Of a stretch of DNA of 64,000 nt, positions 16,090 through 61,613 are shown piece by piece. The stretch's first letter is position 1. Each line of letters opens with the position of its first letter. The notes below the pieces were generated by a model, which was given only the letters and a program-made list of their open reading frames with translations, searched no databases and was not told where the DNA came from. The stretch is from the NCBI GenBank assembly GCA_964569575.1, contig CAZMTL010000005.1:9053-73052 (forward strand), in the 5' to 3' direction. The position numbers and the translations under genes are program-made. Source of the stretch: an uncultured Gammaproteobacteria bacterium (GTDB lineage Bacteria > Patescibacteriota > Patescibacteriia > UBA9934).

Positions 16090-17385
16090 ATGGCTCAAAT
16101 CAAACCCGAAATCGAAACGTTTGCGAAGATCAAAGTATTGGGAGTTGGAGGAGGTGGTGGCTCTGCTCTTATTCGCATGATCAACGAAAAATTGCGGGGT
16201 ATTGATTTTGTGGCGGTAAATACCGATGTGCAGGCATTGCATCAGAACTTGGCCGAACACAAGATTTCGATCGGGAAGACGGTTACTCGAGGATTGGGTG
16301 CTGGAATGAATCCAGAACTTGGTCGCCGGGCGGCGGAAGAAAGTGCGAACGATATTCGTAACGCGATTGCCGGTGCGGACATGGTTTTTTTGACAGGTGG
16401 ATTAGGTGGAGGAACTGGAAGCGGAGCCTTGCCTGAAATTGCGAAAATCGCTCGCGAATCTGGTTGTTTAACAGTTGCGGTCGTAACAAAACCATTTTCT
16501 TTCGAAGGCGCACAGCGAAAGCGTATTGCAGAAGAAGCATTCGCGGAACTTTCGAGTCATGTGGATACTATTATCACAATTCCAAACGACCGAGTTCTTC
16601 AGATTATTGATAAAAAAACATCACTTCTCGATGCGTTTCAGATTGTGGATGACGTACTTCGGCAGGGTGTTCAGGGAATTTCAGAAATTATTACTTTGCC
16701 AGGGTTGATCAACGTTGACTTTGCCGACGTAAAAGCGATTATGCAGAACGCGGGTTCGGCGTTGATGGGAATTGGTTCTGCTTCGGGCGAAAATCGTGCG
16801 GTAGATGCGGCTAAGATGGCGATCGCGAGTCCATTGTTGGAGCTTGCGATTGATGGCGCGAAAGGAATTTTGTTTACTGTAACTGGAAGTGCGGATTTAG
16901 CGATGTATGAAGTGGCGGAAGCTGCGAAGGTGATTACTGGTTCGGCGGATGACGACGCGAAAGTGATCTTTGGTGCAAATATTGATGAAAATTTGAGCGA
17001 TGAGGTGCGTATTACGGTGGTTGCTACTGGATTTGAAGGGCGCGAACGTCGTTCTGCTCCGGGATTGGCTGGAGATATGGAAATTAATTCTTCTGGAAGT
17101 TGGAGTCGGCCTGTGCGAAAAGAGCAGCCAGGATTTTCGGCAAATCCAATGCGGTCTGAACGCATGGATTCGCGACCGGAACGGATGGACTCGCGAGAAG
17201 AATCACCTTTCGAGCAGCGACGCGTGAGCGCAATGGATTCGTATCGCGATCGCGAAGATCGTCACCAGTCTGCGCCACAGGCTCCACAAGCGCCTCAGCA
17301 GCCGCCGCAGGTGCAAAAGCCGTCTAAGCAGGATGATGACGACGATCTAGGTATTCCTGCCTTTATTCGACGAAAAATGATGTAA
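16090..17385 (+). CDS. ftsZ: Cell division GTPase FtsZ with a long disordered C-terminal linker (SERMDSRPERMDSRE repeats) and a conserved C-terminal peptide DDDLGIPAFIRRKMM
   Basis: Tubulin signature GGGTGSG; VGGGGG Walker-like N-terminus. Confidence 0.95.
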   Translation: MAQIKPEIETFAKIKVLGVGGGGGSALIRMINEKLRGIDFVAVNTDVQALHQNLAEHKISIGKTVTRGLGAGMNPELGRRAAEESANDIRNAIAGADMVFLTGGLGGGTGSGALPEIAKIARESGCLTVAVVTKPFSFEGAQRKRIAEEAFAELSSHVDTIITIPNDRVLQIIDKKTSLLDAFQIVDDVLRQGVQGISEIITLPGLINVDFADVKAIMQNAGSALMGIGSASGENRAVDAAKMAIASPLLELAIDGAKGILFTVTGSADLAMYEVAEAAKVITGSADDDAKVIFGANIDENLSDEVRITVVATGFEGRERRSAPGLAGDMEINSSGSWSRPVRKEQPGFSANPMRSERMDSRPERMDSREESPFEQRRVSAMDSYRDREDRHQSAPQAPQAPQQPPQVQKPSKQDDDDDLGIPAFIRRKMM

Positions 17386-17416
17386 AAAAGTGCGCTCGTT
17401 GGAGCGCGCTTTTTTC
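17386..17416 (+). terminator. Rho-independent terminator after ftsZ (GCGCTC-GTTG-GAGCGCGC followed by T6)
   Basis: aaaaaagtgcgctcgttggagcgcgctttttt. Confidence 0.6.
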
Positions 17417-17934: not shown

Positions 17935-19353
17935 ATGGAGGCGAAGCGAACGAAAATTGTTTGCACTATTGGTCCGGCATCCAGCTCTGTTTCGATGCTT
18001 ACTCGAATGATCCGTCATGGGATGAATGTCGCTCGTTTGAATTTTTCGCACGGAACGCATGCCGAACATCAGCAGCTTTTGCGTCACATTCGCAAAGCGG
18101 CGAAGGATGTTGGGACTCATGTTGCTATTTTGCAAGATCTGCAAGGTCCGAAGATTCGTGTCGGTGTTCTTCCGGCCGAAGGAGTTGTGTTGCGAAAATC
18201 ACAGAAGATTCAGTTTACGACCGCTACGGACGTGTTTCATCCGGGGAAGCCGCTTCCAGTTACGTATAAGCAACTTCATCTTGATGTAAAAAAAGATCAT
18301 CGTATTTTGCTCGATGATGGGCGAATGGAGGTTGTGGTTCAGTCTGTTCGAGGGAAGGTGGTGACGGGGAAGGTGGTGTTTGGTGGAGTGTTGACGTCGC
18401 ATAAAGGCATGAACTTGCCCGATTCTACGGTTTCTGCCGCCGCGTTTACGGCAAAGGATCGCGAAGATGCATTGTTTGGATTGTCGCAAGAAGTTGATTG
18501 GGTAGCTCTTTCGTTCGTGACGAGCGCGAAGGTGGTGCGAGAAGTGCGACGGTTTTTGCAGGAACATGCTCGTATTGCGGGTGTTGCTGTTCCGAAAATT
18601 ATTGTCAAAATTGAGCGAAAGGAAGGTGTTCAGGATTTTGTAGATATTTTGAGTGAGGCGGATGGGATTATGATTGCGCGTGGTGATTTAGGTGTCGAAA
18701 TTCCGCTGGAAGAAGTGCCTGTGTTACAGAAGGAATTTGTCGAGATCTGTCGACAGGCAGGGAAGCCGGTGATTGTGGCGACGCAGATGTTGGATTCGAT
18801 GTCGCACAGTCCTCGACCAACGCGCGCCGAGGCTTCGGATGTCGCGAATGCGGTGATGGATCATGCGGATGCTCTAATGTTGTCACAGGAAACTGCTACG
18901 GGTGAATTCCCGGACGAAGCGGTTGAGGTGATGACTGCGATTATTTGCGAAGCAGAGAAATCGAGAATGGATGATATCGGGTTTTATCAAATTCATTCGA
19001 TGGAAGATGCTCCTACGGCAATTGCGCATACGGTTCATATATTGGCCGAAAATGATCAAATTGATGCGATTGTGACTTCGGCCGAATATGGACGTGCGGC
19101 TTTTTTGTTGAATGTCTTTCGACCAAATGTGCCTATTTTTATGGCGTGTCGTGATGATGTTTCGTTGCGTCAAAGTATTTTGCGAGCAGGTATTGAGCCA
19201 TTTGTTGAAAAATCTGATGCAGGTTCGTTTATTCAACGTAGTCGGAATGCATTGATTCGCAAAAAGAAAATCCGATCGACTGATCGGATCGCTTTTGTGG
19301 TTGTTGGAACGAATGCTTCACTATCCCTCACCATCGTGCCGTACGCTAGCTAG
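17935..19353 (+). CDS. pyk: Pyruvate kinase
   Basis: N-terminus MEAKRTKIVCTIGPAS and conserved PK motifs (MIARGDLGVEIP). Confidence 0.95.
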   Translation: MEAKRTKIVCTIGPASSSVSMLTRMIRHGMNVARLNFSHGTHAEHQQLLRHIRKAAKDVGTHVAILQDLQGPKIRVGVLPAEGVVLRKSQKIQFTTATDVFHPGKPLPVTYKQLHLDVKKDHRILLDDGRMEVVVQSVRGKVVTGKVVFGGVLTSHKGMNLPDSTVSAAAFTAKDREDALFGLSQEVDWVALSFVTSAKVVREVRRFLQEHARIAGVAVPKIIVKIERKEGVQDFVDILSEADGIMIARGDLGVEIPLEEVPVLQKEFVEICRQAGKPVIVATQMLDSMSHSPRPTRAEASDVANAVMDHADALMLSQETATGEFPDEAVEVMTAIICEAEKSRMDDIGFYQIHSMEDAPTAIAHTVHILAENDQIDAIVTSAEYGRAAFLLNVFRPNVPIFMACRDDVSLRQSILRAGIEPFVEKSDAGSFIQRSRNALIRKKKIRSTDRIAFVVVGTNASLSLTIVPYAS

Positions 19354-19664
19354 AATTGAAATCGTTCGGTCACAATTCTTGAGACGCTTTTTTCTAGTTG
19401 TGTAACTAGCCAGTTTTGAAATCCTTCAGAGCGTATAAATGCTTGCCCTGCGTAAAGTAGTACGGCTGTAATGACAAGTGTTCCGATTACGACGCCAACT
19501 GCGTTTAAAAGACCGCTCATGATCCCATTAGTAATTCGGTTTTTTCGATGTTTTCGTTGAGTGCGATCGATTAAATCATATAAATCTTCGACTTGCGTAT
19601 TGAGCGATTTTAGTTCGTCCAAAATTTCAGATGTTTTAGTTGTTGGTTTTGCTTGTGGAGGCAT
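19350..19664 (-). CDS. Hypothetical small membrane protein (coiled coil plus one TM helix)
   Basis: ORF only; TM segment GLLNAVGVVIGTLVITAVLLYAG; 4-nt overlap with the convergent pyk stop. Confidence 0.4.
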   Translation of the reverse strand: MPPQAKPTTKTSEILDELKSLNTQVEDLYDLIDRTQRKHRKNRITNGIMSGLLNAVGVVIGTLVITAVLLYAGQAFIRSEGFQNWLVTQLEKSVSRIVTERFQF

Positions 19665-20388
19665 ATTTTCGGAGTTGTTTACGTTTTTCTTTAAAGAGTG
19701 CTTTTGTCGTTTTTTCCCATTTTTCTGTTGCGGCTGTGAAGGCGATGGGCGAAAGTTGGTCTAGGTGTTGTTGAATGAACGCGCCTGTTTCTTTCGGGTA
19801 GAGATTGCCGCATTCTCGCAGTGTCCAGCCGACGGCTTTTTGTACGTATACGTCGGGGTCGTTGAGAAGATTTTGTACGAGTGGGAGAATTTTTCTTGAT
19901 TTTGTTGGAGATGTTTTTCTGCTATTACTGTAATACAGCAGGCTAGTAAGAGAGAGTCTACGAAGCCAGGGATTTTTTGAGCGGTTCCAGAGGTGAAGGG
20001 TTGGTTCTATTTTTTCTGGATGATGTTCGTGAAGATGTGCGTAAATTCCACTCAATCCGTCTGAATGTGCCCAGTTGTCGATTTTCGCTGACCATTTCTT
20101 TAGCATCGGCCAGTCCTGAATACGTACGCGTTTTTGTTTTGGTTCAAAATAGAGAATTGCGATTGTGAGTACTTCGTGATTTGTTGATTCGTGCCACAGT
20201 GCGTCGACTCGCTTTTTTATGTTTTGCTGTTCTTGCTGATAAAACTCGTTTGCGATTTTTCGTACCGATGGAATGGAGCAGCCCAAGCTTTTGAAGTGCG
20301 ATTTAATATAGCCTTCATCGTGCTTCGCGCGATCTTTGTTTGCGTGTTGTTTTAGTTGTTTGAGCAGCGTTCGTTCGTCGGTGTTCAT
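19636..20388 (-). CDS. DNA alkylation repair enzyme family protein (AlkD-like HEAT-repeat glycosylase fold)
   Basis: ORF 19636..20718 trimmed to MNTDERTLL at 20388 (ATGA overlap with the upstream gene's stop); W/K-rich HEAT-like repeats, WLRRLSLTSLL, VQKAVGWTLRE. Confidence 0.65.
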   Translation of the reverse strand: MNTDERTLLKQLKQHANKDRAKHDEGYIKSHFKSLGCSIPSVRKIANEFYQQEQQNIKKRVDALWHESTNHEVLTIAILYFEPKQKRVRIQDWPMLKKWSAKIDNWAHSDGLSGIYAHLHEHHPEKIEPTLHLWNRSKNPWLRRLSLTSLLYYSNSRKTSPTKSRKILPLVQNLLNDPDVYVQKAVGWTLRECGNLYPKETGAFIQQHLDQLSPIAFTAATEKWEKTTKALFKEKRKQLRKYASTSKTNN

Positions 20389-20825
20389 AGGTTTGCGAAA
20401 TACTGGCTGATCAGTACAAGTGCTGCCCACCATCCGATCAGTGAAATGATAAAGCTTACGAACGTTGCCCGTTGCAGTGATTGCGGAAGAAGTTGTGTTT
20501 GCTTGCCTGCGCGTTCGCGTTGTAGAAGAATGGGGCTGACGTAGAATGTGAGAAATGAGCCGTTCGCGATAAGGATGATTGCTGTGACTGCGAGTGTGAG
20601 CTGGAGGGTTGGTTGGGAGTTTTGAAATGTGATGATGCCACCTGCGATAGCAAGAAATGTCCCAAGCCAAATAAGGGGTTTGGTGATTTTGTGTGATCGC
20701 GTTGTCGCTTCGGTCCAATATCCAGACGTGCGACCTAGAAATGCGTGAACATCAATAACGGTGACAGCCCCGTGTCCGATCACGAATCCTGCAAGTAGAA
20801 GAAAAATGCCGATAAAGTCAGTCAT
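20385..20825 (-). CDS. Hypothetical 4-TM membrane protein
   Basis: Four hydrophobic helices; start/stop coupling with the downstream AlkD-like gene. Confidence 0.6.
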   Translation of the reverse strand: MTDFIGIFLLLAGFVIGHGAVTVIDVHAFLGRTSGYWTEATTRSHKITKPLIWLGTFLAIAGGIITFQNSQPTLQLTLAVTAIILIANGSFLTFYVSPILLQRERAGKQTQLLPQSLQRATFVSFIISLIGWWAALVLISQYFANL

Positions 20826-20861
20826 GCTAGTAGTATAGCATTTCTTCGCATTAAACGATTG

Positions 20862-20888
20862 CGCCCCGGACCTTGTGGGTCCGGGGCG
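20862..20888 (-). terminator. GC-rich hairpin (11-bp stem CGCCCCGGACC/GGTCCGGGGCG) downstream of the high-GC gene 20894..21181
   Basis: Perfect inverted repeat read from the sequence. Confidence 0.5.
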
Positions 20889-20893
20889 AGAGG

Positions 20894-21181
20894 CTACTTG
20901 ATGATCAGGTCGATCTGGGTAGCTGGGATGTAGACTTCGATGGTCTCTTCCTTGCAGTGCACGGTGAGGTGATCAGGGTTGTGGCGATGGATGGTGACGA
21001 TGGCTTGTTCTCCTTTGCAGGGCTGGAACTCAGCCTTGTCGATGCTCTCCATGTAGTTGACTACTCCGGGCGTATTTCGAATCTGCTCGATGCGATCCGA
21101 TTCACTTTGTCCGCAGCGCCAGAGGGCGGCACAGCAGAGTGTCAGTACGAGGCTTCCGTTGATCAGGGCGCGACGCTTCAA
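20894..21181 (-). CDS. Small secreted Cys-containing hypothetical protein in a high-GC island (TTG start, GGAG SD)
   Basis: Signal-peptide-like N-terminus; GC3 about 75% by hand count, against about 40% for flanking genes; GGAG 7 nt upstream of the TTG. Confidence 0.55.
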   Translation of the reverse strand: MKRRALINGSLVLTLCCAALWRCGQSESDRIEQIRNTPGVVNYMESIDKAEFQPCKGEQAIVTIHRHNPDHLTVHCKEETIEVYIPATQIDLIIK

Positions 21182-21319
21182 GCTTGCTCCGGTCCTTCGC
21201 GTGCTCGCAAAGAGACATTTGATTTAACCACTTTGTTGGCTAAAAGTCAATTATTCTGCGGTTTTGTTGACGGTTGTAGATAAAGTAGGGGAAGATGAAT
21301 GGGTACAAAGGAGGTTCGG

Positions 21320-21781
21320 ATGTCTGTTCGTGTGATTAAGGCGCTTGTTCCATCGGTTCGCTTCATTGATCGTCCCGAGGTGCGGTTATTGCTTGAACGG
21401 GTGTTCATGGCTCGGCGGTTTGTTTGGGACGGCGTTTCCATGCGGCTCGACGCACGTGGCGAGCTGTATACTGTCGACGTTGACGAGGTTGATGTTCATG
21501 CGAAGGCTTGGAACACTGTCGAGATTCCAGGAACGCATGTGTATCGACCTGAGAAGGTGTACGACCATGTTACGTTTCATTTGATTCCCCGGGGTGGTCG
21601 ACGGGATTATTGCAAGGTCACGTACGTTGAAGTTGTCGCTCAGCTTCCGTCTAGCGTGCTGCGTTCGCATCCGGATTATCGATTGGTTTGCGAAGTTACG
21701 CCCGAAGACAACGTGCTGATCTCGTGTGGCGGTCGATTGTTTCATCGCGCGATTACGACGGTATTTCGTGCGACGATCTAG
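21320..21781 (+). CDS. Hypothetical protein (154 aa) in a high-GC island
   Basis: ORF track 21299..21781 trimmed to the ATG at 21320, which has a strong AAGGAGG SD 5 nt upstream. Confidence 0.55.
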   Translation: MSVRVIKALVPSVRFIDRPEVRLLLERVFMARRFVWDGVSMRLDARGELYTVDVDEVDVHAKAWNTVEIPGTHVYRPEKVYDHVTFHLIPRGGRRDYCKVTYVEVVAQLPSSVLRSHPDYRLVCEVTPEDNVLISCGGRLFHRAITTVFRATI

Positions 21782-21796
21782 GCCGCAGAACGCATA

Positions 21797-21821
21797 CGCC
21801 CCGCGAGTTGATCGCGGGGCG
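21797..21821 (+). terminator. GC-rich hairpin (10-bp stem CGCCCCGCGA/TCGCGGGGCG, 5-nt loop) then CTTCTATT
   Basis: Perfect inverted repeat 16 nt after the stop of 21320..21781. Confidence 0.55.
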
Positions 21822-21827
21822 CTTCTA

Positions 21828-22370
21828 TTAGAACGTAAAGTTGAATTGTGCGAGCGGGTCGATGAATGTCACGTTTGTTGGTGCTTCGAACATCGAATCG
21901 TTTACATTTTCTCGAGAGCAATTTACATCAACGTCAGGTTGGTAGTTTGTACCGCTTCCGTTGTTTGATGAATCTGTTGTTGTTCCTTCGCTTTCATAGT
22001 CTTGCAAGGCGTCACTCAATCCGCAGAGTTTCATTCCTTCACTTCCGCCTTCTTCCCATGTGTAGGTACATTCTCCGTCCGAGATCACTCGGCCAGTTCT
22101 TCCATCAACATCCGCTTCAATAGCGAATTTGTCGTTTTTGATGTAGCTGGTACCTGTTCCGTATTCCCCGGACCAGGTGCATTTGAGTGATTCGCCACGT
22201 TGTAGGGCGGCTGCGAAAGAACCGGTGAATGTAGAATCGTTGTTTGATTCTACCGATGTTTTGGTGTCGGTTGTTTCCATTCCGTTGTTATTGACGGTGT
22301 TATTGGTTGCACAACCAGCTCCTAGAAGGAGAATGACGGCCAAGGCGGTGAAGGTGAGTGATGTTTTCAT
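21828..22370 (-). CDS. Putative lipoprotein (signal peptide with LLGAGC lipobox-like cysteine), Asn/Thr/Gly-rich
   Basis: MKTSLTFTALAVILLLGAGCATNN...; normal (low) GC. Confidence 0.65.
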   Translation of the reverse strand: MKTSLTFTALAVILLLGAGCATNNTVNNNGMETTDTKTSVESNNDSTFTGSFAAALQRGESLKCTWSGEYGTGTSYIKNDKFAIEADVDGRTGRVISDGECTYTWEEGGSEGMKLCGLSDALQDYESEGTTTDSSNNGSGTNYQPDVDVNCSRENVNDSMFEAPTNVTFIDPLAQFNFTF

Positions 22371-22381
22371 AGGGTCAATTT

Positions 22382-24370
22382 CTATTTTTCAAACTTGTTA
22401 AACAGGGTTGGGTCGATGTCCATTACTTTTGTGGCCCAGTCATTTCCGAAGCGTTGTCGAGCAACTTCTTCGGATGGAATATATTCTAACGCTTCACGCA
22501 CGTTTCCGGCAATAACTAGATACGTTTCTGGTTTGCTTTGAATTTTTACGAGCGTTCCTGCTTTTGGTAGCACGGGCATTCCGAGCGGGATCGTTGGAAG
22601 TGTTGCGTCGGTAACGATTTTGATATTGTCGAAGTTTGCGAATCGAGTGAAGTAAATGGCTTCGTTCATGAATGGCCGACGCGTTCCGTTTTCGATTAGG
22701 TAGACGGTGTCGTAGTTTTGGCCTCGAATCAACTGTGCGCCCGTGATGTCGGTGATTAGCTCGATGTTTCCTGTGAACGGTGATGGTCCTGTTGTAGGTG
22801 ATTCGGTTGATTCCTCTTCGTCCACTTCTTCTTCGATCACTTCGTTTTCACATTCAAACGACAGTTGTTCGCTTGCACTTGTTGAGGTGATTGATCCGCT
22901 TGTGTTTCGCAGGGCGAGGTAGACCGTTGTAGTGGATTGTTTGATCTGAAAATTCCACGACTTTGTGATACTTTCTGCCGTTAATTCTTGCCATGTCGCA
23001 TTTGAAAAATCTGCATTGTTCGAAAGAATGTATTCAGTTGCCCCGGCTGATTGAATGTTTACTTCACCTGTCAGGCTTCCAGAATCGCACGAATAGGCGA
23101 GGGAGTGGATTGAGAGAGAGGCTGTCGTGATCGGTGTTGCACTTGTTTCGGAAGACGAACTTCGTTTTACCGAGAAATTCCAGGTGGTTTCGTTGTTGAT
23201 TCCTGGGAATATTCCACCGCCGTCAACAGCGAATGCTCCGCTGTCGATTTGAATGTAGACATCTTCGCCGTTTGGTAATTGGCCTGGCTCGATGGTGATG
23301 GTTTCGGTTCCTGATCCGCTTACGCGATTGCTTTCAACATCGATTGTTGAAAAAAGTACGTCGTTGTTTGTGCGGTAGATGTAGATGTTTCCGGTTCCTG
23401 TGATGACGTCCTGGTCGAAGGTGATTTCTAGATCTGCACTTCGTAGTACGTCAACTTCGTTATCTGTTGGAGAGAGAGTTACGATTTCTGGTGCTTCGAA
23501 TGCGGTGAGGGAGAATTCTGCTCCAGCAGTTTCGGGCATATCTCCGTCTGCTCCGAACTCGACGACGTATCCAGGAAGCATACTTGTAGCACAGCCGAGG
23601 TCATTCCATTCGCCGCTTTGTAATCCACCCGAGAGGAACTGCGCGCAGTCTTCGCTGCTACTGCTGTCGTTTGGTTCGTTTTCGTTCCAGTTTTCGTATT
23701 CCCCAGGCACAACAGCTCCAAATTGATCACCTACCCAGAATAGGTCACCTGTTTCTGGTCCGGTCACCCAGCGCCATTCGTCTTCCACGGCGGCGTCGCT
23801 TGCACCCATCCATCCAGCTCCGCCAAGTCGAGCGGCGACGAAGTCATTTTCTTCCTGTGAAGTGATGGTGGTGAGATATCCTGTGGCTCCATAGCGTTCA
23901 AGTCCTGCCGCGGCGATCTGAGCATTGTTCCAGTTGATGTTTCCTGGCACGGAAATATATTCGTACAAATGTCCATTTCCGGAAAAGAATACTTCGCCTT
24001 CTTCTACGAGCGATACTTCTAATGTGTCGGCGCCGGTTGAGTCGGCTGTGTAGAGAAGTGTTGCGAGTGCTGCGTTTACATCTTCGACATCGCCTGAAAA
24101 GTAGAGTTCTGCTCCAGTTTCTGGACCGGTAAACGTGAGTCCGGTTGTTGTTGTCATTTCGAGCGTTCCGTTGCTTACGAGTAATTTTACCGGAATGACT
24201 CCTACGGCATTAAGAACTTCGATGCCTGTTAAAAGGATAGGTAGGTCGACTGTTGCTGTTTGGTTGTCGTCGCCGATGACTTCTAATTCACCGTCAGCAT
24301 AAGTTGGCTGAATGTGCAGCAGGGAAGTTGCAAGCACGCTGATTAATAACGCGCCAAGAATCTTTTTCAT
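22382..24370 (-). CDS. Secreted C-type lectin domain protein (CTLD with EPN and WND motifs) plus a C-terminal domain shared with the 1679-aa protein
   Basis: ORF 22382..24397 trimmed to MKKILGALLISVLATSLLHIQPTYA (signal peptide); CTLD motifs WNNAQ...C, ITSQEENDFV, GWMGASD...EDEWRWV, WNENEPN, EDCAQF, GEWNDLGC. Confidence 0.85.
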   Translation of the reverse strand: MKKILGALLISVLATSLLHIQPTYADGELEVIGDDNQTATVDLPILLTGIEVLNAVGVIPVKLLVSNGTLEMTTTTGLTFTGPETGAELYFSGDVEDVNAALATLLYTADSTGADTLEVSLVEEGEVFFSGNGHLYEYISVPGNINWNNAQIAAAGLERYGATGYLTTITSQEENDFVAARLGGAGWMGASDAAVEDEWRWVTGPETGDLFWVGDQFGAVVPGEYENWNENEPNDSSSSEDCAQFLSGGLQSGEWNDLGCATSMLPGYVVEFGADGDMPETAGAEFSLTAFEAPEIVTLSPTDNEVDVLRSADLEITFDQDVITGTGNIYIYRTNNDVLFSTIDVESNRVSGSGTETITIEPGQLPNGEDVYIQIDSGAFAVDGGGIFPGINNETTWNFSVKRSSSSETSATPITTASLSIHSLAYSCDSGSLTGEVNIQSAGATEYILSNNADFSNATWQELTAESITKSWNFQIKQSTTTVYLALRNTSGSITSTSASEQLSFECENEVIEEEVDEEESTESPTTGPSPFTGNIELITDITGAQLIRGQNYDTVYLIENGTRRPFMNEAIYFTRFANFDNIKIVTDATLPTIPLGMPVLPKAGTLVKIQSKPETYLVIAGNVREALEYIPSEEVARQRFGNDWATKVMDIDPTLFNKFEK

Positions 24371-24480
24371 ACGAAAAATAAAGTAATATTGGCTCAATTA
24401 TAACACGGACGCACGGATTATTTTTTGTTTGGAAGTGTGGGTGTTGATAGGTTTTGTGGGGAGGGTTGAAAATGAAAAAA

Positions 24481-24505: not shown

Positions 24506-24581
24506 TGGCGGGCTGGACGGGACTCGAACCCGCAACTTCCGCCGTGACAGGGCGGTGCTCTAACCATTGAACTACCAGCCC
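24506..24581 (-). tRNA. tRNA-Asp (anticodon GUC), CCA encoded
   Basis: Minus-strand read GGGCUGG-UA-GUUC-AAUGGUUA-GAGC-A-CCGCC-CU-GUC-AC-GGCGG-AAGUU-GCGGG-UUCGAGU-CCCGU-CCAGCCC-G-CCA folds as a cloverleaf. Confidence 0.9.
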
Positions 24582-24668
24582 ATTTGTGTGACACAGACGC
24601 GTGTCAGTAAATGGTGGCGAAATGGTATCAAATCATCTTTTTTTTGGCAAGAAACGGTTATAAACAAG

Positions 24669-24703
24669 AGAGCCCCCTTTCAGCGAGTGCTGTAGGGGGC
24701 TCG
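24669..24703 (-). terminator. GC-rich hairpin (9-bp stem GAGCCCCCT/AGGGGGCTC) 3' of the island gene 24729..25964
   Basis: Perfect inverted repeat with a 16-nt loop. Confidence 0.5.
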
Positions 24704-24728
24704 AGAGAACTGGCGCAGTGGCGCTGGT

Positions 24729-25964
24729 TCAGAAGGTGGTGAACGTCGGGCAGTTGGCGCCGGACGGGAAGCAGGCCTTGGTGAGAGCGATGTTGTCGCT
24801 TCCGTTCACCCAGGTGCAGCTTCCGTCATCGTTGCGGTTGAACGTGCCGTGGAGCTGGTAGACCGTGCCGGTCTTCAGTGCCGTTTCGTTTGGAACCGTG
24901 ATGGTGAGCGAGTCGTGCACAATGATTGCGGACAGGTCCTCGACGGTGCACTTGACCGGTTCGCTGTTCGCTGTCGCCGTATCTGACTGCGGCATCGTTC
25001 CCGTTTGCGTCATTGCGATGGTTGTCGGTTGACTGGTTGTTGCGACCGTCGGTTCCTGCGGTGGCATGGTGACAGTGCGCTTGGGCATGATTCCTTCAAT
25101 AGGAAGCTCTGCCCGGACTACGCGTTGCGCAGTTGGCCGGATTTCGCTTTCGCCCACGTTCCAGTTCGAGATCATCACCACCGTCATGGTGAGAGCCAGA
25201 ATTCCGCTCATCGTGAAGAGTGCCGCGAGTACGCTTGCGATTCCGATCGTTGGGATGAACCAGCCGCGCAGTTGCGTTCGCTCGGTTTCTTCTTCGTCCT
25301 CTTCCGTTTCCTGAGAGGCCCTGAAGAACTCGTCCTCGAAGTCCTTGGTCGTCAGTGGCTCTCCTCGTGCGTCGGTCGGTGCCGTGTTTGTAGTAGCGCC
25401 TTCCTTGGCTTTTTCGAACCACGGAGTTTCGGTGACTTCGTTGAACGGGTCGCCGGTGTCTTCGGCGGGCTTCTTCTTGAAGAGGGTTGTCGCAGGCACG
25501 CCCTCTTCTACCACCAGCCCTGCGAGAGGGTCTCCCTCGTCGAAGCTGTCGAGATCGCCTGGAGGGAGATCGGGCAGGCCTTCATCGTTGAAGGTAGTGG
25601 CAGCGTGGTCGCGAAGACGCATGATGCCAGTATCCCCTTCTTTGAACGTGAGGTAGCCGTCCTCGGGAACGATGGTGTCGGCGCTGTCCCTCGTGCGTCC
25701 ATTGCCGGAGCTGAGTACACGGGTGGCTGCACCTGGGTGGGTAGAGAGCTCCGCAGCCGCTTCTTTGGCCGGAGCCGTTGTTGCCGCTTCCGCTGCCTTG
25801 GCTTCCCCCGCTGTCTTTGCCGCTGCGCGCTCTTTCATGTTCTTGAGGTGTTCTTCTGCGGTCGGTCGCTCTCCTTCGATTTCTTTGCAGGCCGCGACGA
25901 GATTCTTGAAGTCCTCGCAGGACTGGTCGATGCGGGCCGAGCTGTCTGGCGTGTCCTTACCCAT
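24729..25964 (-). CDS. Hypothetical single-pass membrane protein (acidic, Ala/Glu-rich cytoplasmic N-domain; extracytoplasmic Cys-containing C-domain) in a high-GC island
   Basis: ORF 24729..26267 trimmed to the ATG at 25964 with a GGAG SD; GC3 about 85% over the first 13 codons; TM helix GWFIPTIGIASVLAALFTMSGILALTMTVV. Confidence 0.6.
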   Translation of the reverse strand: MGKDTPDSSARIDQSCEDFKNLVAACKEIEGERPTAEEHLKNMKERAAAKTAGEAKAAEAATTAPAKEAAAELSTHPGAATRVLSSGNGRTRDSADTIVPEDGYLTFKEGDTGIMRLRDHAATTFNDEGLPDLPPGDLDSFDEGDPLAGLVVEEGVPATTLFKKKPAEDTGDPFNEVTETPWFEKAKEGATTNTAPTDARGEPLTTKDFEDEFFRASQETEEDEEETERTQLRGWFIPTIGIASVLAALFTMSGILALTMTVVMISNWNVGESEIRPTAQRVVRAELPIEGIMPKRTVTMPPQEPTVATTSQPTTIAMTQTGTMPQSDTATANSEPVKCTVEDLSAIIVHDSLTITVPNETALKTGTVYQLHGTFNRNDDGSCTWVNGSDNIALTKACFPSGANCPTFTTF

Positions 25965-26124
25965 GCTGTCTCCAGATGCTGATTGGTGAAAGATCGAGGT
26001 TGAATATTTCAAACATAGATGTCTGAACTGACGGATAGTACAGGAAATACCAAGAATGTCAATAAATACAAAGCGATCCCCAGCGCCGAAGCGGTGGGGA
26101 TCTCGATTTCGCCTGGCGCTGCGC

Positions 26125-26718
26125 TTATCGCGCGGCCAGGCAGGTGTTGGGCATGTCGCCCGTCTCGCCCGGGGTGGGCTGACGAGCGACATTGCACCAA
26201 CGCGCGGGGCACTGGTCGGTGGCCCCGAAGATGCGCGTGAAGCCCTCGTGGGCCAGCGCACCTTCACCGATGGTCTTGAGGTCGAGGCAGTTGGCCTCGA
26301 CCGCCTTCTTGATCGTGGATGGCTTGCCGTCCACGGTGGGGGTGAAGTGCATCTCGCCGTTGGCGGAGCACTCCACGTCGCGGAGGCTCCAAGCCTGTCC
26401 GCTCCAGGTGAAGGCCACGACGCCGTTGACGGGCATCGTGGCGGGGGCGAGGCAGCTGATGAGCTGCTCGTTCTCGTTCGGCGTCACCGTCTCCCCGACC
26501 ACCTGGGTGGTGGTCGGGGAGACGGCAGGGGGCCACATCATCCACGCAGCGCTCGTGAGAGCGAGGAGGATGAGGCCGATGCCCAGCAGGCTGAGGAGGC
26601 TGATGCCCCCGCACCCGATGGTCGTCGGCCACCACGAGCGCGTCGCGCGTCGCGGGGGCGGCGTGGGGCGACCCGGGAAGGGGGCGTCCGTGGGGTCCTG
26701 GTTGGGTTCGATCGCCAT
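26125..26718 (-). CDS. Hypothetical single-pass membrane protein (Pro-rich cytoplasmic N-terminus, TM helix, Cys-containing ectodomain) in a high-GC island
   Basis: ATG at 26718 with a GGAG SD; high GC3; a perfect TTGACA -35 at 26812-26817 on the minus strand. Confidence 0.6.
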   Translation of the reverse strand: MAIEPNQDPTDAPFPGRPTPPPRRATRSWWPTTIGCGGISLLSLLGIGLILLALTSAAWMMWPPAVSPTTTQVVGETVTPNENEQLISCLAPATMPVNGVVAFTWSGQAWSLRDVECSANGEMHFTPTVDGKPSTIKKAVEANCLDLKTIGEGALAHEGFTRIFGATDQCPARWCNVARQPTPGETGDMPNTCLAAR

Positions 26719-26852
26719 GGATTACTCCGTGCCAGCTCTTGCTGGCGGGTGTGAGGTAAGGGGGCCGACTTACTGAAGTCGACTGATTAAACTATCACAA
26801 AATAGTCTTTTTGTCAAGGAATATATAGTTATTTCTCCTAAAACCAAAAACC

Positions 26853-26878
26853 AGCCGGATTGGCTGGTTTTTGTGAAA
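26853..26878. terminator. Bidirectional terminator CCAGCC-GGAT-TGGCTGG with A/T flanks, 3' of rplT
   Basis: aaaaaccagccggattggctggtttttgtg. Confidence 0.65.
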
Positions 26879-44023: not shown

Positions 44024-44060
44024 CGAGATAAAAAAAAACCACGCCTTTGCAGGCGTGGTT
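44024..44060. terminator. Bidirectional terminator CCACGCC-TTTGCA-GGCGTGG with A9/T6 flanks
   Basis: aaaaaaaaaccacgcctttgcaggcgtggttttttatttt. Confidence 0.75.
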
Positions 44061-44062
44061 TT

Positions 44063-45073
44063 TTATTTTACTTCGGTTTTTGCTCCTGGTTTGTTGTCGT
44101 ACTGTTTTGACTTGTAGAACATGTAGAGTGCTACAAGTGCGATGGCGATTAAGGCGATCCACCAGGCTTTTATAAGTACTACAGCGGTGAAGATGACGAT
44201 CCAGAGAGGTACTGCGATGATGAAGGCCGCGATTGCTGTAAGCAATCCTGTTCCTCGGCTAAGAAGTGGCCCGATGATTGGGATGAGGTTGAAGTGTCCA
44301 CCAAGCCATCGAATTGGACCTAGGATCAGGAGGATTCCAACAAACAACATGACGAAGGTGACGACCCATAATGTTGTACGCGCTGCTGTGTCACGTGCTT
44401 TTAGTTTTTCGAGCGTTGTTGATTGATCGTATTGTGAAACGACGAATGTTTTTTCACCCGATGTGATTGTTGTGCCAGTTGATGTTCCTGCAACCGTTAA
44501 CATTTCCGGAAGTGGGAAGTAGTTGTAGACACTTCGGGATTCATTTCCGTTTGTGGCGTATCCTGTTTCAACTGTGGCGTCTTCTAGATCGAGGTACAGA
44601 GTGCTTTGGGTTGGTTTTACGGTGTATTGACCAACGTTTACATCGTAGATCGAGTAGAGCACGTTTTGTTCCTCCCAAGCTGATTTTTCTACGTCGTAAC
44701 ATGGTTCGCAGTTGCCTTCGCTGTCACATTCGGTTCCGTTTTGTCGGATCACTTTATATTGCGAACTGTTTTCGATGTACGACCCACACATTAGATCGGT
44801 TTTGATGACGAATTCTTGCTGGCTTTCTTTTTGGTAGATGCACGGCCCTTCAATGCAGTCCTCGCCTCCATTTACTGCCGAGAATTGAGGTGTTCCGGTT
44901 GTTTTTATGTAGCCAGTTGCTTGATCTGTGGATTCAGTAACTTCGGCACTCTTGAAGTCTTTTGCTGAATGTTGGCTTTGTGCAGACCACATTGCGAGCG
45001 GTGATCCGATGACGAGTAGAATACCGATCCCGATTCCAAGTAGGCTGCCCCCTAGATTTGATGTTCTTAACAT
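44063..45073 (-). CDS. Hypothetical membrane protein: N-terminal TM, Cys-containing extracytoplasmic domain, C-terminal 3-4 TM bundle
   Basis: Hydropathy pattern read from the translation. Confidence 0.6.
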   Translation of the reverse strand: MLRTSNLGGSLLGIGIGILLVIGSPLAMWSAQSQHSAKDFKSAEVTESTDQATGYIKTTGTPQFSAVNGGEDCIEGPCIYQKESQQEFVIKTDLMCGSYIENSSQYKVIRQNGTECDSEGNCEPCYDVEKSAWEEQNVLYSIYDVNVGQYTVKPTQSTLYLDLEDATVETGYATNGNESRSVYNYFPLPEMLTVAGTSTGTTITSGEKTFVVSQYDQSTTLEKLKARDTAARTTLWVVTFVMLFVGILLILGPIRWLGGHFNLIPIIGPLLSRGTGLLTAIAAFIIAVPLWIVIFTAVVLIKAWWIALIAIALVALYMFYKSKQYDNKPGAKTEVK

Positions 45074-53926: not shown

Positions 53927-53962
53927 TTAAAGCAAAGAAGGGCCGTAAGGCTCTTTTTTGTT
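53927..53962 (+). terminator. Terminator after the helicase (AGGGCC-GTAA-GGCTCT then T6)
   Basis: aaagaagggccgtaaggctcttttttgtttg. Confidence 0.5.
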
Positions 53963-60953: not shown

Positions 60954-61613
60954 TTACGCTTCCGCGATCTCGGCTTTGCCGGGCGGGAGCTTGAGGTAGA
61001 AGCTGTTGTTGCTCAGATCGACTTCGTCGCCGAGCGTGAGCTTCTCGTTCTGCCCACGGTTGGTCTTCTTGGTCTCGATGACGCACTGCGACTTCGCTTC
61101 GCGCTTCACCCGCCACTCCTCTCGGAGTTCGTTCGTGAAGTGTCTTCCGAGGCCGACTCCGAAGTACCCGGTCCAGTACTCGAAGTATTCCAGTTCGGTG
61201 ATGAGCTCCTTGCGCTGCCTCGCCGTCTGGACCAGGAGGTGGTGGATCCGCGTCACGCTTTCGCGTACGGTCTCCACCTGACCGGATTGTGTGAAGGTGA
61301 GCGGGGCGCAATCGCCCTTGCTCGCCTTCCGCACGGCAGCGGCGGTGCGCTCGAGCAGGCAGTTGATGCCGCCGTGCTGGTCGAGCGCGGAGCGCTCGTA
61401 GCTGCAGAGCGACGCCTGAAGGAAAGCGATCTTGCGATCGGCCTCCTTCCAGTCTTGCTCGAAGAGCTCTTCGAGCTCGTTGAGCCAGCACTTCCCTTCG
61501 AGCGAGTTGAATCGGCTGAAGGTGTTTCGGGTGAGGTCGCGCACTCGCGCCAGCTCCTCGAAGTTGAGGTTGTAGTGGTGGCCGGCGATGCGGGCGTTCT
61601 GGTTCTGGGACAT
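60954..61613 (-). CDS. Hypothetical cytoplasmic protein (219 aa) in a high-GC island
   Basis: High GC3, strong GGAGG SD 5 nt upstream, diverse amino-acid composition; alternative overlapping frames judged to be GC artefacts. Confidence 0.55.
   Translation of the reverse strand: MSQNQNARIAGHHYNLNFEELARVRDLTRNTFSRFNSLEGKCWLNELEELFEQDWKEADRKIAFLQASLCSYERSALDQHGGINCLLERTAAAVRKASKGDCAPLTFTQSGQVETVRESVTRIHHLLVQTARQRKELITELEYFEYWTGYFGVGLGRHFTNELREEWRVKREAKSQCVIETKKTNRGQNEKLTLGDEVDLSNNSFYLKLPPGKAEIAEA

What the first reader, a model, noticed from the sequence alone, without database searches (positions are those of the whole stretch)
20840..21830. Second high-GC island: convergent pair of small hypothetical genes bracketed by perfect 10-11-bp GC hairpins
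A small secreted Cys protein (20894..21181, TTG start, GC3 about 75%) and a 154-aa protein (21320..21781) sit between two nearly identical-style hairpins (CGCCCCGGACC/GGTCCGGGGCG and CGCCCCGCGA/TCGCGGGGCG). The second gene has an AAGGAGG SD. Composition and signals match the 24.7-26.7 kb island, which suggests a common foreign source or a cassette-like mobile unit.
Basis: partly seen in the sequence, partly recalled or inferred. Interest (0 to 1): 0.6.

Follow-up and report, generated by a model that had tools for sequence, protein, structure and literature searches.

The report
Two orphan genes with terminator hairpins
Two small genes found in no other sequenced organism sit back to back, each ending in a strong GC-rich stem-loop that most likely ends its transcript; this is an ordinary piece of a variable chromosome region, and nothing marks it as a mobile cassette.

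Summary
The hairpins, both ORFs and the AAGGAGG ribosome-binding site are real. The two genes are divergent (head to head), not convergent. Each hairpin lies 5-15 nt after a stop codon. Hairpin 2 also lies 6 nt after the stop of the convergent lipoprotein gene. The simplest reading is therefore transcript-end stem-loops, with hairpin 2 working in both directions.

The "high-GC island" is weak: 53.4% GC against 46.3 +/- 2.5%, with a host-like dinucleotide signature. Only the 95-aa gene is clearly atypical (GC3 0.71, codon usage like the 24.7-26.7 kb and 61 kb GC3-rich genes). The 153-aa gene is within host range.

Both proteins are orphans: searches of 5.8 billion and 1.84 billion proteins found no credible relative beyond themselves, and Pfam, NCBIfam, PHROGs, PADLOC, PDB, plasmids and phages gave nothing significant.

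No transposase, integrase, terminal repeat or target duplication is present. The hairpins of the other islands are unrelated.

Relatives keep ftsA-ftsZ-nrdR-pyk-g104 but carry different genes between there and rplT, so this is a variable zone.

Public gene calls place a 136-aa ORF on the opposite strand of the small gene; I judge that a shadow ORF (about 75%).

The parts
20832..20840 (-). Context: extended -10 promoter element TGcTATACT of the downstream 146-aa membrane-protein gene (20385-20825, -). It ends 6 nt before that gene's ATG, with no Shine-Dalgarno, so the mRNA is probably leaderless.
   Evidence: Read from the sequence. TATACT is also the -10 of the rpmI and rpsB promoter-like sites. 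Function is inferred.
20862..20888 (-). Hairpin 1: perfect 11-bp stem CGCCCCGGACC/GGTCCGGGGCG with a 5-nt loop. It lies 5 nt after the stop of the 95-aa minus-strand gene and upstream of the membrane-gene promoter. The tail CAAUCGUU has only 3 U in 8.
   Evidence: -26.8 kcal/mol; z -5.05; 0 of 200 shuffles fold as well. Not listed by the terminator scan because it lacks a T-run.
20894..21181 (-). 95-aa ORF (ProtA). TTG start with GGAG (21190-21187) 5 nt upstream. The N-terminus has a signal-peptide or membrane-anchor look (MKRRA + 16 hydrophobic residues). 5 Cys. GC3 0.71 with C3 0.51. No homologue found.
   Evidence: the only one of 232 ORFs of 60 aa or more that passes a strict signal-peptide filter; 3-base periodicity spans exactly 20897-21181.
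20873..21283 (+). 136-aa ORF on the opposite strand (P0003), which is the public gene call. Probably a shadow ORF of the C3-rich minus gene. Its TTG start lies inside hairpin 1, it has no Shine-Dalgarno, and its last 34 codons run through the promoter-like spacer.
   Evidence: no homologue; periodicity lost after 21181; worst fit to host synonymous codon usage: z -2.75, 0 of 4000 host blocks as poor.
21182..21319 (.). Divergent intergenic region in a local GC dip (45% GC in the 200-nt window 21201-21400). It carries both ribosome-binding sites (GGAG for the minus gene; AAGGAGG at 21308-21314 for the plus gene) and a weak promoter-like site for the minus gene: TTGACT (21250-21245), 17 nt, TTAAAT (21227-21222).
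   Evidence: The consensus scan found no strong promoter here, so promoter assignment is inferred.
21320..21781 (+). 153-aa ORF (ProtB). ATG start, strong Shine-Dalgarno, no signal peptide, rich in Arg and Val. GC3 0.54; codon usage within host range. An orphan.
   Evidence: only itself among 5.8 billion proteins; only itself plus two repeat-inflated hits among 1.84 billion; weak similarity to a PKD-repeat protein.
21797..21821 (.). Hairpin 2: perfect 10-bp stem CGCCCCGCGA/TCGCGGGGCG with a 5-nt loop. It starts 15 nt after the ProtB stop (tail CTTCTATT) and lies 6 nt after the stop of the convergent lipoprotein gene 21828-22370(-). Likely a bidirectional terminator.
   Evidence: (top terminator-like site in 15-30 kb).

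Best explanation
This is a pair of lineage-specific accessory genes, not a mobile unit. It lies in a variable stretch of the chromosome between the conserved ftsA-ftsZ-nrdR-pyk-g104 block and tRNA-Asp/rplT.

The two genes are transcribed away from each other out of a shared 138-bp spacer:
- The minus-strand gene encodes a 95-aa exported or membrane-anchored Cys-containing protein.
- The plus-strand gene encodes a 153-aa cytoplasmic protein.

Each transcript ends in a very stable GC-rich stem-loop.
- Hairpin 1 ends or stabilises the small-gene transcript and separates it from the promoter of the next membrane-protein gene.
- Hairpin 2 serves both the 153-aa gene and the convergent lipoprotein gene as a bidirectional terminator.

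The small gene belongs to the same C3-rich codon-usage class as the other GC-rich genes of the window, so it was probably acquired, or evolves under the same regime as they do. The 153-aa gene is compositionally native.

Shown: the structures, their positions, the composition and the absence of homologues. Inferred: termination, export, and which strand is coding at 20.9-21.2 kb.
For: Position of the hairpins:
- Perfect, exceptionally stable hairpins lie 5, 15 and 6 nt after three stop codons.
- Hairpin 2 on the + strand is the best terminator-like site in 15-30 kb.

Gene signals:
- AAGGAGG lies 5 nt before the ATG of the 153-aa gene. GGAG lies 5 nt before the TTG of the 95-aa gene.

Minus strand as the coding strand:
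- The N-terminus is the only one of 232 ORFs to pass a strict signal-peptide filter.
- C at minus-frame codon position 3 is 0.57, 0.50 and 0.45 across 20897-21181, then falls to 0.29 beyond 21181.
- The + ORF fits host synonymous codon usage worse than the minus ORF (z -2.75 against -1.8).
- C3-rich genes here carry 0-1 TTA/CTA/TCA codons and so leave open shadow frames.
- Island 3 shows the same real-gene/shadow-ORF pair. Its minus ORF has an AGGAGG site.

Variable zone:
- Relatives L018-L024 keep ftsA, ftsZ, nrdR, pyk and g104 but share none of the membrane-protein, ProtA, ProtB, lipoprotein or lectin genes.

Assembly:
- A separately assembled contig from run SRR15237806 spans both junctions and is identical.
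Against: - Hairpin 1 has no U-tract (3 U in the first 8 nt) and the terminator scan does not list it.
- The title of PMC3993855 states that mycobacterial RNA polymerase requires a U-tract at intrinsic terminators. Termination at hairpin 1 is therefore unproven. It may only stabilise a 3' end, or pause the polymerase.
- Two gene callers choose the + strand ORF.
- A host-trained codon score and an amino-acid score favour the + reading. The same scores also favour the evident shadow ORFs of islands 2 and 3.
- No strong promoter was detected in the spacer.
- With no homologues, no substitution-pattern test is possible.
- The two stems share their outer 7 bp. I estimate the chance of that at roughly 1-3% for GC-only stems. 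This hints at a link beyond being two independent terminators.
Confidence: 0.6

Rival explanations
1. The public annotation is right. The 136-aa + strand ORF (20873-21283) and the 153-aa gene form a co-directional two-gene operon ended by hairpin 2. The 95-aa minus ORF is then the shadow. In this reading the region is compositionally near-native (GC3 about 0.53 for both genes) and hairpin 1 is a 5' element of the operon.
For: - It is the longer ORF, and it is called in the NCBI and Logan data.
- Its GC1/GC2/GC3 values (0.64/0.43/0.53) are almost identical to those of the 153-aa gene (0.64/0.40/0.55).
- Both are A3-poor and T3-rich.
- Host-trained codon and amino-acid scores favour it.
- An in-frame GTG is preceded by GAGGTGATC.
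Against: - The TTG start lies inside a -27 kcal/mol hairpin and has no Shine-Dalgarno.
- The product is very acidic (17 Asp and 8 Glu against 2 Lys, by my count).
- Coding periodicity stops at 21181, 34 codons before its stop.
- It has the poorest fit to host synonymous codon usage of all local genes (z -2.75).
- It leaves hairpin 1 without a gene to terminate, and leaves the signal-peptide-like N-terminus and GGAG site of the minus ORF as coincidences.
- It has no homologue.
Confidence: 0.2
2. The roughly 960-bp segment is a cassette-like mobile or horizontally transferred unit bounded by two related hairpins. It would share its foreign source with the 24.7-26.7 kb and 61 kb GC-rich islands.
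For: - The two hairpins share CGCCCCG...CGGGGCG and a loosely similar 5' flank (AACGnnTn; 12 of 15).
- They are unlike host terminators.
- The small gene has island-type codon usage.
- The segment is absent from all relatives found.
Against: - No integrase, transposase or recombinase was detected in any of the roughly 25 ORFs scanned between 11 and 32 kb.
- There is no target duplication and no terminal inverted repeat longer than 7 bp.
- The 153-aa gene and the dinucleotide signature are host-like.
- Hairpin 2 also abuts the stop of a host-type lipoprotein gene.
- The hairpins of islands 2 and 3 are unrelated, and island 3 uses a host-style T-tract terminator.
- There is no match in plasmids, phages or viral contigs.
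- A GCCCCG...CGGGGC hairpin follows the core gene smpB in relative L021, so this style can be native.
Confidence: 0.08
3. The hairpins are not primarily terminators. They would be copies of a REP-like extragenic palindrome, or a palindromic protein-binding or recombination site such as the ends of an invertible segment.
For: - Both are extragenic, GC-rich and perfectly palindromic, and they share a stem base.
Against: - There are only two copies in 64 kb.
- The 7-mer CGCCCCG is not over-represented (6 found, 5.9 expected).
- No RAYT-type transposase or recombinase is nearby.
- The segment holds two complete outward-facing genes rather than a promoter, which does not fit an invertible switch.
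Confidence: 0.05

Closest known systems
Rho-independent (intrinsic) terminators, including bidirectional terminators between convergent genes
   Same: A GC-rich perfect stem-loop sits a few nucleotides after a stop codon. Hairpin 2 lies between two convergent genes and has a T-rich tail on the + strand. Bidirectional termination at convergent gene pairs is a described phenomenon (bioRxiv 10.1101/2022.10.23.513370, found).
   Different: Hairpin 1, and hairpin 2 read on the minus strand, lack a proper U-tract. The host's other terminators in the window have the A-tract/stem/T-tract form with less GC-rich stems.
U-tract-less ('I-shaped') GC hairpins proposed as terminators in high-GC bacteria such as mycobacteria
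   Same: A very stable GC stem with no U-run directly after a gene.
   Different: The title of PMC3993855 states that mycobacterial RNA polymerase requires a U-tract at intrinsic terminators, so the role of such hairpins is debated. This genome is only 47% GC and has canonical terminators elsewhere.
REP / BIME extragenic palindromes of proteobacteria
   Same: Short GC-rich extragenic palindromes in 3' untranslated regions. [quoted passage not shown]
   Different: REPs occur in very many copies per genome and are imperfect palindromes (my background knowledge). Here there are two perfect copies in 64 kb that share only 7 bp, and no family could be shown.
Orphan genes in variable chromosomal zones, and shadow ORFs opposite GC3-rich genes
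   Same: The genes have no homologues, are absent from relatives that keep the flanking core genes, have small exported products, and carry an open antisense frame that gene callers pick instead.
   Different: Nothing essential. This is the category it fits.
Integron gene cassettes with attC sites
   Same: Small genes of unknown function next to imperfectly related palindromic sites.
   Different: No integrase gene was found among the ORFs scanned. I saw no R''-L''/L'-R' attC architecture or GTTRRRY core on reading the sites. Both genes have their own start signals and point outwards. The hairpins are 25-27 nt perfect palindromes.

Membership tests
Intrinsic (Rho-independent) terminator | Stable GC-rich stem-loop directly downstream of a coding region | tested here: met
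   Stems of 11 and 10 bp, at -26.8 and -22.9 kcal/mol. They lie 5, 15 and 6 nt after stop codons.
Intrinsic (Rho-independent) terminator | U-rich tract of about 7-9 nt immediately after the stem | tested here: inconclusive
   Hairpin 2 on the + strand has the tail CTTCTATT (5 T in 8) and passes the scan. Hairpin 1 on the minus strand has CAAUCGUU (3 in 8), and hairpin 2 on the minus strand has UAUGCGUU (4 in 8). Neither of those passes.
Intrinsic (Rho-independent) terminator | Transcripts actually end there | not testable with these tools
   No transcript data are available. This needs 3'-end mapping or an in vitro termination assay.
Horizontally acquired genomic island | Base composition or codon usage significantly different from the host | tested here: inconclusive
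   Region GC z 2.8. 95-aa gene GC3 z 4.4 (0 of 5000 host blocks reach it). 153-aa gene z 2.1 (4% of host blocks reach it). Dinucleotide signature is host-like. The result for the small gene depends on the strand call.
Horizontally acquired genomic island | Mobility genes, a flanking tRNA, or direct repeats at the borders | tested here: not met
   No integrase or transposase among the ORFs scanned between 11 and 32 kb. tRNA-Asp is 2.7 kb away. No border repeats.
Horizontally acquired genomic island | Absent from related genomes that keep the flanks | tested here: inconclusive
   Absent from L018-L024. However, those relatives are distant (pyruvate kinase 49-65% identical), and everything between g104 (or the DNA-alkylation repair gene) and rplT differs.
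Integron cassette / attC | attC architecture, a nearby intI gene, and promoterless co-oriented ORFs | tested here: not met
   No integrase domain was found among the ORFs scanned. The genes are divergent and have their own ribosome-binding sites. The sites are short perfect palindromes. attC architecture was judged by reading the sequence, with no dedicated model.
REP-like repeat family | Many related copies in extragenic positions across the genome | tested here: inconclusive
   Two copies in 64 kb. The 7-mer is at its chance frequency. One similar hairpin occurs in 51 related loci. The rest of the genome was not available.
Transposon / MITE | Terminal inverted repeats plus a target-site duplication | tested here: not met
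   The ends share only 7 bp, and there is no duplication.
Sec signal peptide or lipoprotein (95-aa product) | Positive n-region, hydrophobic h-region, and a cleavage site or lipobox | tested here: inconclusive
   The n- and h-regions are clear (MKRRA + LINGSLVLTLCCAALW), and it is the only ORF to pass my filter. The lipobox is not canonical (LTLC). No dedicated predictor was available.
PKD / Ig-like domain (153-aa product) | Match to the Pfam PKD models above threshold | tested here: not met
   No Pfam hit at E <= 0.1. The only signal is 28% identity over 82 aa to a PKD-repeat protein, with a library E-value of 2.9e-4 that is inflated by three repeats.

The most novel reading that the evidence does not exclude
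The two CGCCCCG-based palindromes could be the ends of a so far undescribed kind of small hairpin-bounded gene cassette. Such cassettes would deliver orphan surface-protein genes into a variable locus of this uncultured lineage. They might draw on the same higher-GC donor pool as the C3-rich genes at 24.7-26.7 kb and 61 kb.
Probability: 0.06. Interest if true: 0.55.

Novelty: new member of a known kind. Interest (0 to 1): 0.15.

Why it matters
As it stands, it matters little. It is a small example of orphan accessory genes with unusually GC-rich transcript-end hairpins in a variable chromosome zone.

It has two modest practical values:
- It shows a probable strand mis-annotation, a shadow ORF called opposite a C3-rich gene. 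This is likely to recur wherever such genes sit in mid-GC genomes.
- It separates the three "GC islands" of the window. They are not one repeat-bounded family, and only part of this one shares their codon usage.

If the cassette reading were true, it would point to a new route of gene gain in a poorly known lineage.

Tried and rejected
**Homology**
- The 153-aa protein against 5.8 billion proteins found only itself.
- The same protein against 1.84 billion cluster representatives with full HMMER found itself plus two hits. One is a perfect tandem-repeat artefact. The other is a PKD-repeat protein whose score is inflated by its repeats.
- The 95-aa protein found nothing. The + strand ORF found only itself.
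- Pfam, NCBIfam, PHROGs and PADLOC gave nothing significant. The best was a 13-bit 2OG-oxygenase hit at E 0.009. I set it aside because Pfam shows nothing, and because the only HxD I could find (HPD, by reading the sequence) lies about 25 residues before the candidate distal His. From my background knowledge that spacing looks too short.
- PDB sequence search found nothing.
- tblastn against plasmids and phages found nothing below E 0.2. Viral contigs gave nothing.

**Structure**
- Single-sequence AlphaFold2 gave mean pLDDT 36 and 45. That is too poor for fold searches, so none were run.

**Synteny**
- The genome-collection scan found no close relative, and the genome itself is not among the species representatives.
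- The metagenome scan gave relatives with pyruvate kinase only 49-65% identical. An exact insertion-site comparison was therefore impossible.

**Repeat family**
- The hairpin patterns were searched in viral contigs. This gave 0 and 1 matches, which I judge to be chance level.

**Strand call**
- Host-trained codon, amino-acid and position models gave symmetric, uninformative answers. A G1-rich plus reading and a C3-rich minus reading are the same signal.

**Own error**
- My first coordinates for the island-2 gene (24732-25954) were out of frame. The right ones are 24729-25964. The calls affected were 36 and 43 (and 50, which reused the same query file). The PADLOC one search failed on the same coordinates. 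Redone.

**Other**
- A paper search for the run accession found nothing.
- The invertible-segment and operator-site readings were considered and dropped, because no recombinase is nearby and the sites sit at gene ends.
Full report
**What is in the sequence**

The window is 47.0% GC. At 20862-20888 there is a perfect 11-bp stem (CGCCCCGGACC / GGTCCGGGGCG) with a 5-nt loop. At 21797-21821 there is a perfect 10-bp stem (CGCCCCGCGA / TCGCGGGGCG) with a 5-nt loop.

In a scan of all 32-nt windows these are the second and third most stable folds of the 64 kb, at -26.8 and -22.9 kcal/mol. The only stronger one lies inside a coding region at 26.5 kb.

The pattern GCCCCG-N5-25-CGGGGC occurs only at these two places. 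The expectation is 0.04, and none of 100 shuffles reaches two. The 7-mer CGCCCCG itself is at chance frequency: 6 found, 5.9 expected, 4 of them in these hairpins.

Between the hairpins lie two ORFs:
- 20894-21181 on the minus strand: 95 aa, TTG start.
- 21320-21781 on the plus strand: 153 aa, ATG start, with AAGGAGG at 21308-21314, 5 nt upstream.

So the hairpins, ORFs and Shine-Dalgarno site are confirmed. The geometry was misread. The minus-strand gene is on the left and the plus-strand gene is on the right, so the pair is divergent. The two genes share a 138-bp spacer (21182-21319) that sits in a local GC dip.

**Composition**

The region 20840-21830 is 53.4% GC. Host windows of the same length, with the three GC-rich stretches left out, average 46.3 +/- 2.5%, with a maximum of 52.5%. 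That gives z = 2.8. In 200-nt steps GC is already about 50% from 20.4 kb, so the left edge is not sharp.

GC3 against contiguous host codon blocks of equal length:

| Gene | GC3 | z | Host blocks reaching it |
|---|---|---|---|
| 95-aa minus ORF | 0.713 | 4.4 | 0 of 5000 |
| 153-aa gene | 0.539 | 2.1 | 4% |
| + strand ORF (20873-21283) | 0.526 | 1.8 | 5% |

A synonymous-codon log-ratio, island 2 against host, gives:

| Gene | Log-ratio |
|---|---|
| 95-aa minus ORF | +0.55 |
| Island-2 genes | +0.49 and +0.99 |
| 61-kb gene | +0.87 |
| 153-aa gene | -0.58 |
| Host genes | mean -0.79, maximum -0.23 |

The 95-aa ORF therefore groups with the island genes. The 153-aa gene lies inside the host range.

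Fit to host synonymous usage is z -1.8 for the 95-aa ORF, -1.5 for the 153-aa gene and -2.75 for the + strand ORF.

The dinucleotide signature of the whole region is closer to the host (59) than an average host window is (86 +/- 26). It is closer to the host than to island 2 (94).

There is a small GC rise and one clearly atypical gene, but not a coherent foreign island like 24.7-26.7 kb (60-70% GC, GC3 0.70-0.91).

**Which strand codes at 20.9-21.2 kb**

The public data (NCBI contig of 83 kb; Logan assembly of SRR15237806) call a 136-aa ORF on the plus strand, 20873-21283, not the 95-aa minus ORF. Neither reading has any homologue.

Composition-based scores are symmetric, because G-rich first positions on one strand are C-rich third positions on the other. 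Host-trained models favour plus by about 34 bits. Models trained on the window's other C3-rich genes favour minus by 46-55 bits. The host-trained scores also prefer the shadow frames of islands 2 and 3, so they cannot be trusted here.

Five independent points favour the minus ORF:
- It has GGAG 5 nt before its start. Its N-terminus, MKRRA followed by 16 mostly hydrophobic residues, is the only one of 232 ORFs of 60 aa or more in the window to pass a strict signal-peptide filter. I wrote that filter after seeing the sequence.
- The 3-base periodicity covers exactly 20897-21181 (C at minus-frame position 3: 0.57, 0.50, 0.45) and collapses to 0.29 in 21182-21283. That last stretch is the final 34 codons of the plus ORF.
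- The plus ORF starts at a TTG inside the hairpin, with no ribosome-binding site.
- The plus ORF is the worst fit to host synonymous usage.
- Hairpin 1 then sits 5 nt after a stop codon instead of in front of a gene.

C3-rich genes here carry 0-1 TTA/CTA/TCA codons and therefore leave long open antisense frames. Island 3 shows the same pair of readings, and there the minus ORF has an AGGAGG site. I put about 75% on the minus ORF.

**The hairpins as transcript ends**

With that gene model every hairpin follows a stop codon:
- Hairpin 1 lies 5 nt after the 95-aa gene.
- Hairpin 2 starts 15 nt after the 153-aa gene.
- On the other strand, hairpin 2 lies 6 nt after the convergent lipoprotein gene 21828-22370.

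Hairpin 2 on the plus strand has the tail CTTCTATT and is the top terminator-like site in 15-30 kb. Hairpin 1 has no U-run (CAAUCGUU) and is not listed.

Just beyond hairpin 1 the next gene, a 146-aa membrane protein at 20385-20825 on the minus strand, has TGcTATACT ending 6 nt before its ATG and no Shine-Dalgarno. That suggests its own extended -10 promoter and a leaderless mRNA. TATACT is also the -10 of the rpmI and rpsB promoter-like sites.

The host's other clear terminators have the A-tract/stem/T-tract form, at 5-35, 17383-17414, 26843-26874, 44033-44064 and 53931-53962. The two hairpins are therefore stylistically different.

The title of PMC3993855 states that mycobacterial RNA polymerase requires a U-tract at intrinsic terminators. 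For hairpin 1, termination is therefore an inference. 3'-end stabilisation or pausing are alternatives.

A GCCCCG...CGGGGC palindrome also lies 63 nt downstream of the core gene smpB in relative L021. This style need not be foreign.

**Shared repeat family?**

The 3'-end hairpins of the other GC-rich genes are:
- GAGCCCCCU...AGGGGGCUC after the island-2 gene at 24671-24702.
- AACCGACC...GGUCGGUUUUU after the 61-kb gene.

Neither is related in sequence to the CGCCCCG pair, and the second is host-style.

The two hairpins of this finding share their outer 7 bp and a loose 5' flank (12 of 15). I estimate the chance of that at 1-3% for GC-only stems. It is a mild hint of common origin, not a family.

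There are no terminal inverted repeats beyond those 7 bp and no target duplication. No integrase, transposase or recombinase appeared in any of the roughly 25 ORFs scanned between 11 and 32 kb.

**The proteins**

Both are orphans.
- The 153-aa protein finds only itself among 5.8 billion clustered proteins.
- Among 1.84 billion representatives with full HMMER it finds itself plus two repeat-inflated hits.
- One of those, a PKD-repeat protein, aligns at 28% identity over 82 aa, including a GTHVY...Y..V motif. No Pfam PKD match exists. This remains a lead only.
- Pfam, NCBIfam, PHROGs, PADLOC, PDB, plasmids, phages and viral contigs gave nothing significant.
- Single-sequence AlphaFold2 models have pLDDT 36 and 45 and were not used.
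- No paralogue exists in the window.

The neighbours are a membrane protein, a lipoprotein and a 671-aa protein with C-type lectin and Big_5 domains. The small exported protein fits a cluster of envelope or surface genes.

**Context in relatives**

A separately assembled Logan contig is identical over 19062-22232 and spans both junctions. The segment is therefore unlikely to be an artefact of a single assembly.

The genome collection holds no close relative. A metagenome scan with pyruvate kinase found relatives at 49-65% identity. These keep ftsA-ftsZ-nrdR-pyk and the small membrane gene g104. One of them (L024) also keeps the DNA-alkylation repair gene.

None has the 146-aa membrane-protein gene, either gene of this finding, the lipoprotein gene or the lectin gene. 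Each carries different genes before tRNA-Asp.

The finding therefore lies in a variable zone between core blocks. That explains the lack of homologues without invoking a mobile unit. The relatives are too distant to define insertion breakpoints.

**The 24.7-26.7 kb island as a comparison**

Relative L021 has the same order: tRNA-Asp (minus strand), then several genes with GC3 0.59-0.75 against a host value of about 0.42, then rplT. The C-terminal Cys motif of its 369-aa protein matches the window's 411-aa protein (39% over 51 aa, pairwise E 0.002).

That island is thus a position-conserved GC-rich locus in two deeply diverged genomes, not clearly a recent import. This weakens the "common foreign source" argument.

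**Verdict**

This is a real but ordinary feature. It consists of two lineage-specific genes, divergently transcribed, each closed by a strong GC stem-loop, the second probably bidirectional. One gene shares the C3-rich codon style of the window's other GC-rich genes, and the other looks native. The cassette or mobile reading is not excluded, but nothing positive supports it beyond the 7-bp similarity of the stems.

The lineage was not identified. The nearest DNA-alkylation repair homologues (36-45% identity) are in Bdellovibrio-like, Bacteroidota, proteobacterial and Candidatus Uhrbacteria MAGs, and I make no taxonomic claim.

Noticed in passing
window 24506-26760; L021 14599-18716: The strongly GC-rich island (genes 24729-25964 and 26125-26718 on the minus strand, GC3 0.70 and 0.91) lies between tRNA-Asp and rplT. 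A distant relative (pyruvate kinase 58% identical) has GC3 0.59-0.75 genes at the same position, with the same membrane-anchored, Cys-rich C-terminal architecture and a weak motif match (E 0.002). A GC-rich locus kept in place across such divergence is unexplained.
   Followed up: partly
window 26487-26525: A perfect 17-bp hairpin (CCGTCTCCCCGACCACC / GGTGGTCGGGGAGACGG, -29.8 kcal/mol) lies inside the coding region of the 197-aa island-2 gene. It is the most stable local fold in the window.
   Followed up: no
window 60954-61613 (-): Third GC-rich stretch: a 219-aa ORF with GC3 0.87 and an AGGAGG ribosome-binding site, with no Pfam or PADLOC family match, followed by a host-style terminator (AACCGACC...GGTCGGTTTTT). 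It also carries long shadow ORFs on the other strand and in another frame.
   Followed up: partly
window 20873-21283 (+): The public gene calls (NCBI contig, Logan contig) annotate the 136-aa + strand ORF. This is probably a shadow ORF of the 95-aa C3-rich minus-strand gene.
   Followed up: yes
window 20823-20840 (-): The 146-aa membrane-protein gene has TGcTATACT ending 6 nt before its ATG and no Shine-Dalgarno. It is probably a leaderless mRNA from an extended -10 promoter.
   Followed up: no
window 22382-24397 (-): A 671-aa secreted protein matches the eukaryote-type C-type lectin domain (PF00059, E 5e-10) and a Big_5 Ig-like domain. None of the related loci has it.
   Followed up: no
window 1-64000: The + strand has G>C and mostly T>A across nearly the whole window, whatever the gene orientation. 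As a result, minus-strand host genes are C3/A3-rich and plus-strand genes are G3/T3-rich. This has to be allowed for in any codon-usage test here.
   Followed up: partly
window 19636-20388 (-): The closest homologues of the DNA-alkylation repair gene in the genome collection (36-45% identity) are in Bdellovibrio-like, Bacteroidota, proteobacterial and Uhrbacteria MAGs. One metagenomic relative (L024) keeps it in the same place after pyk-g104.
   Followed up: partly
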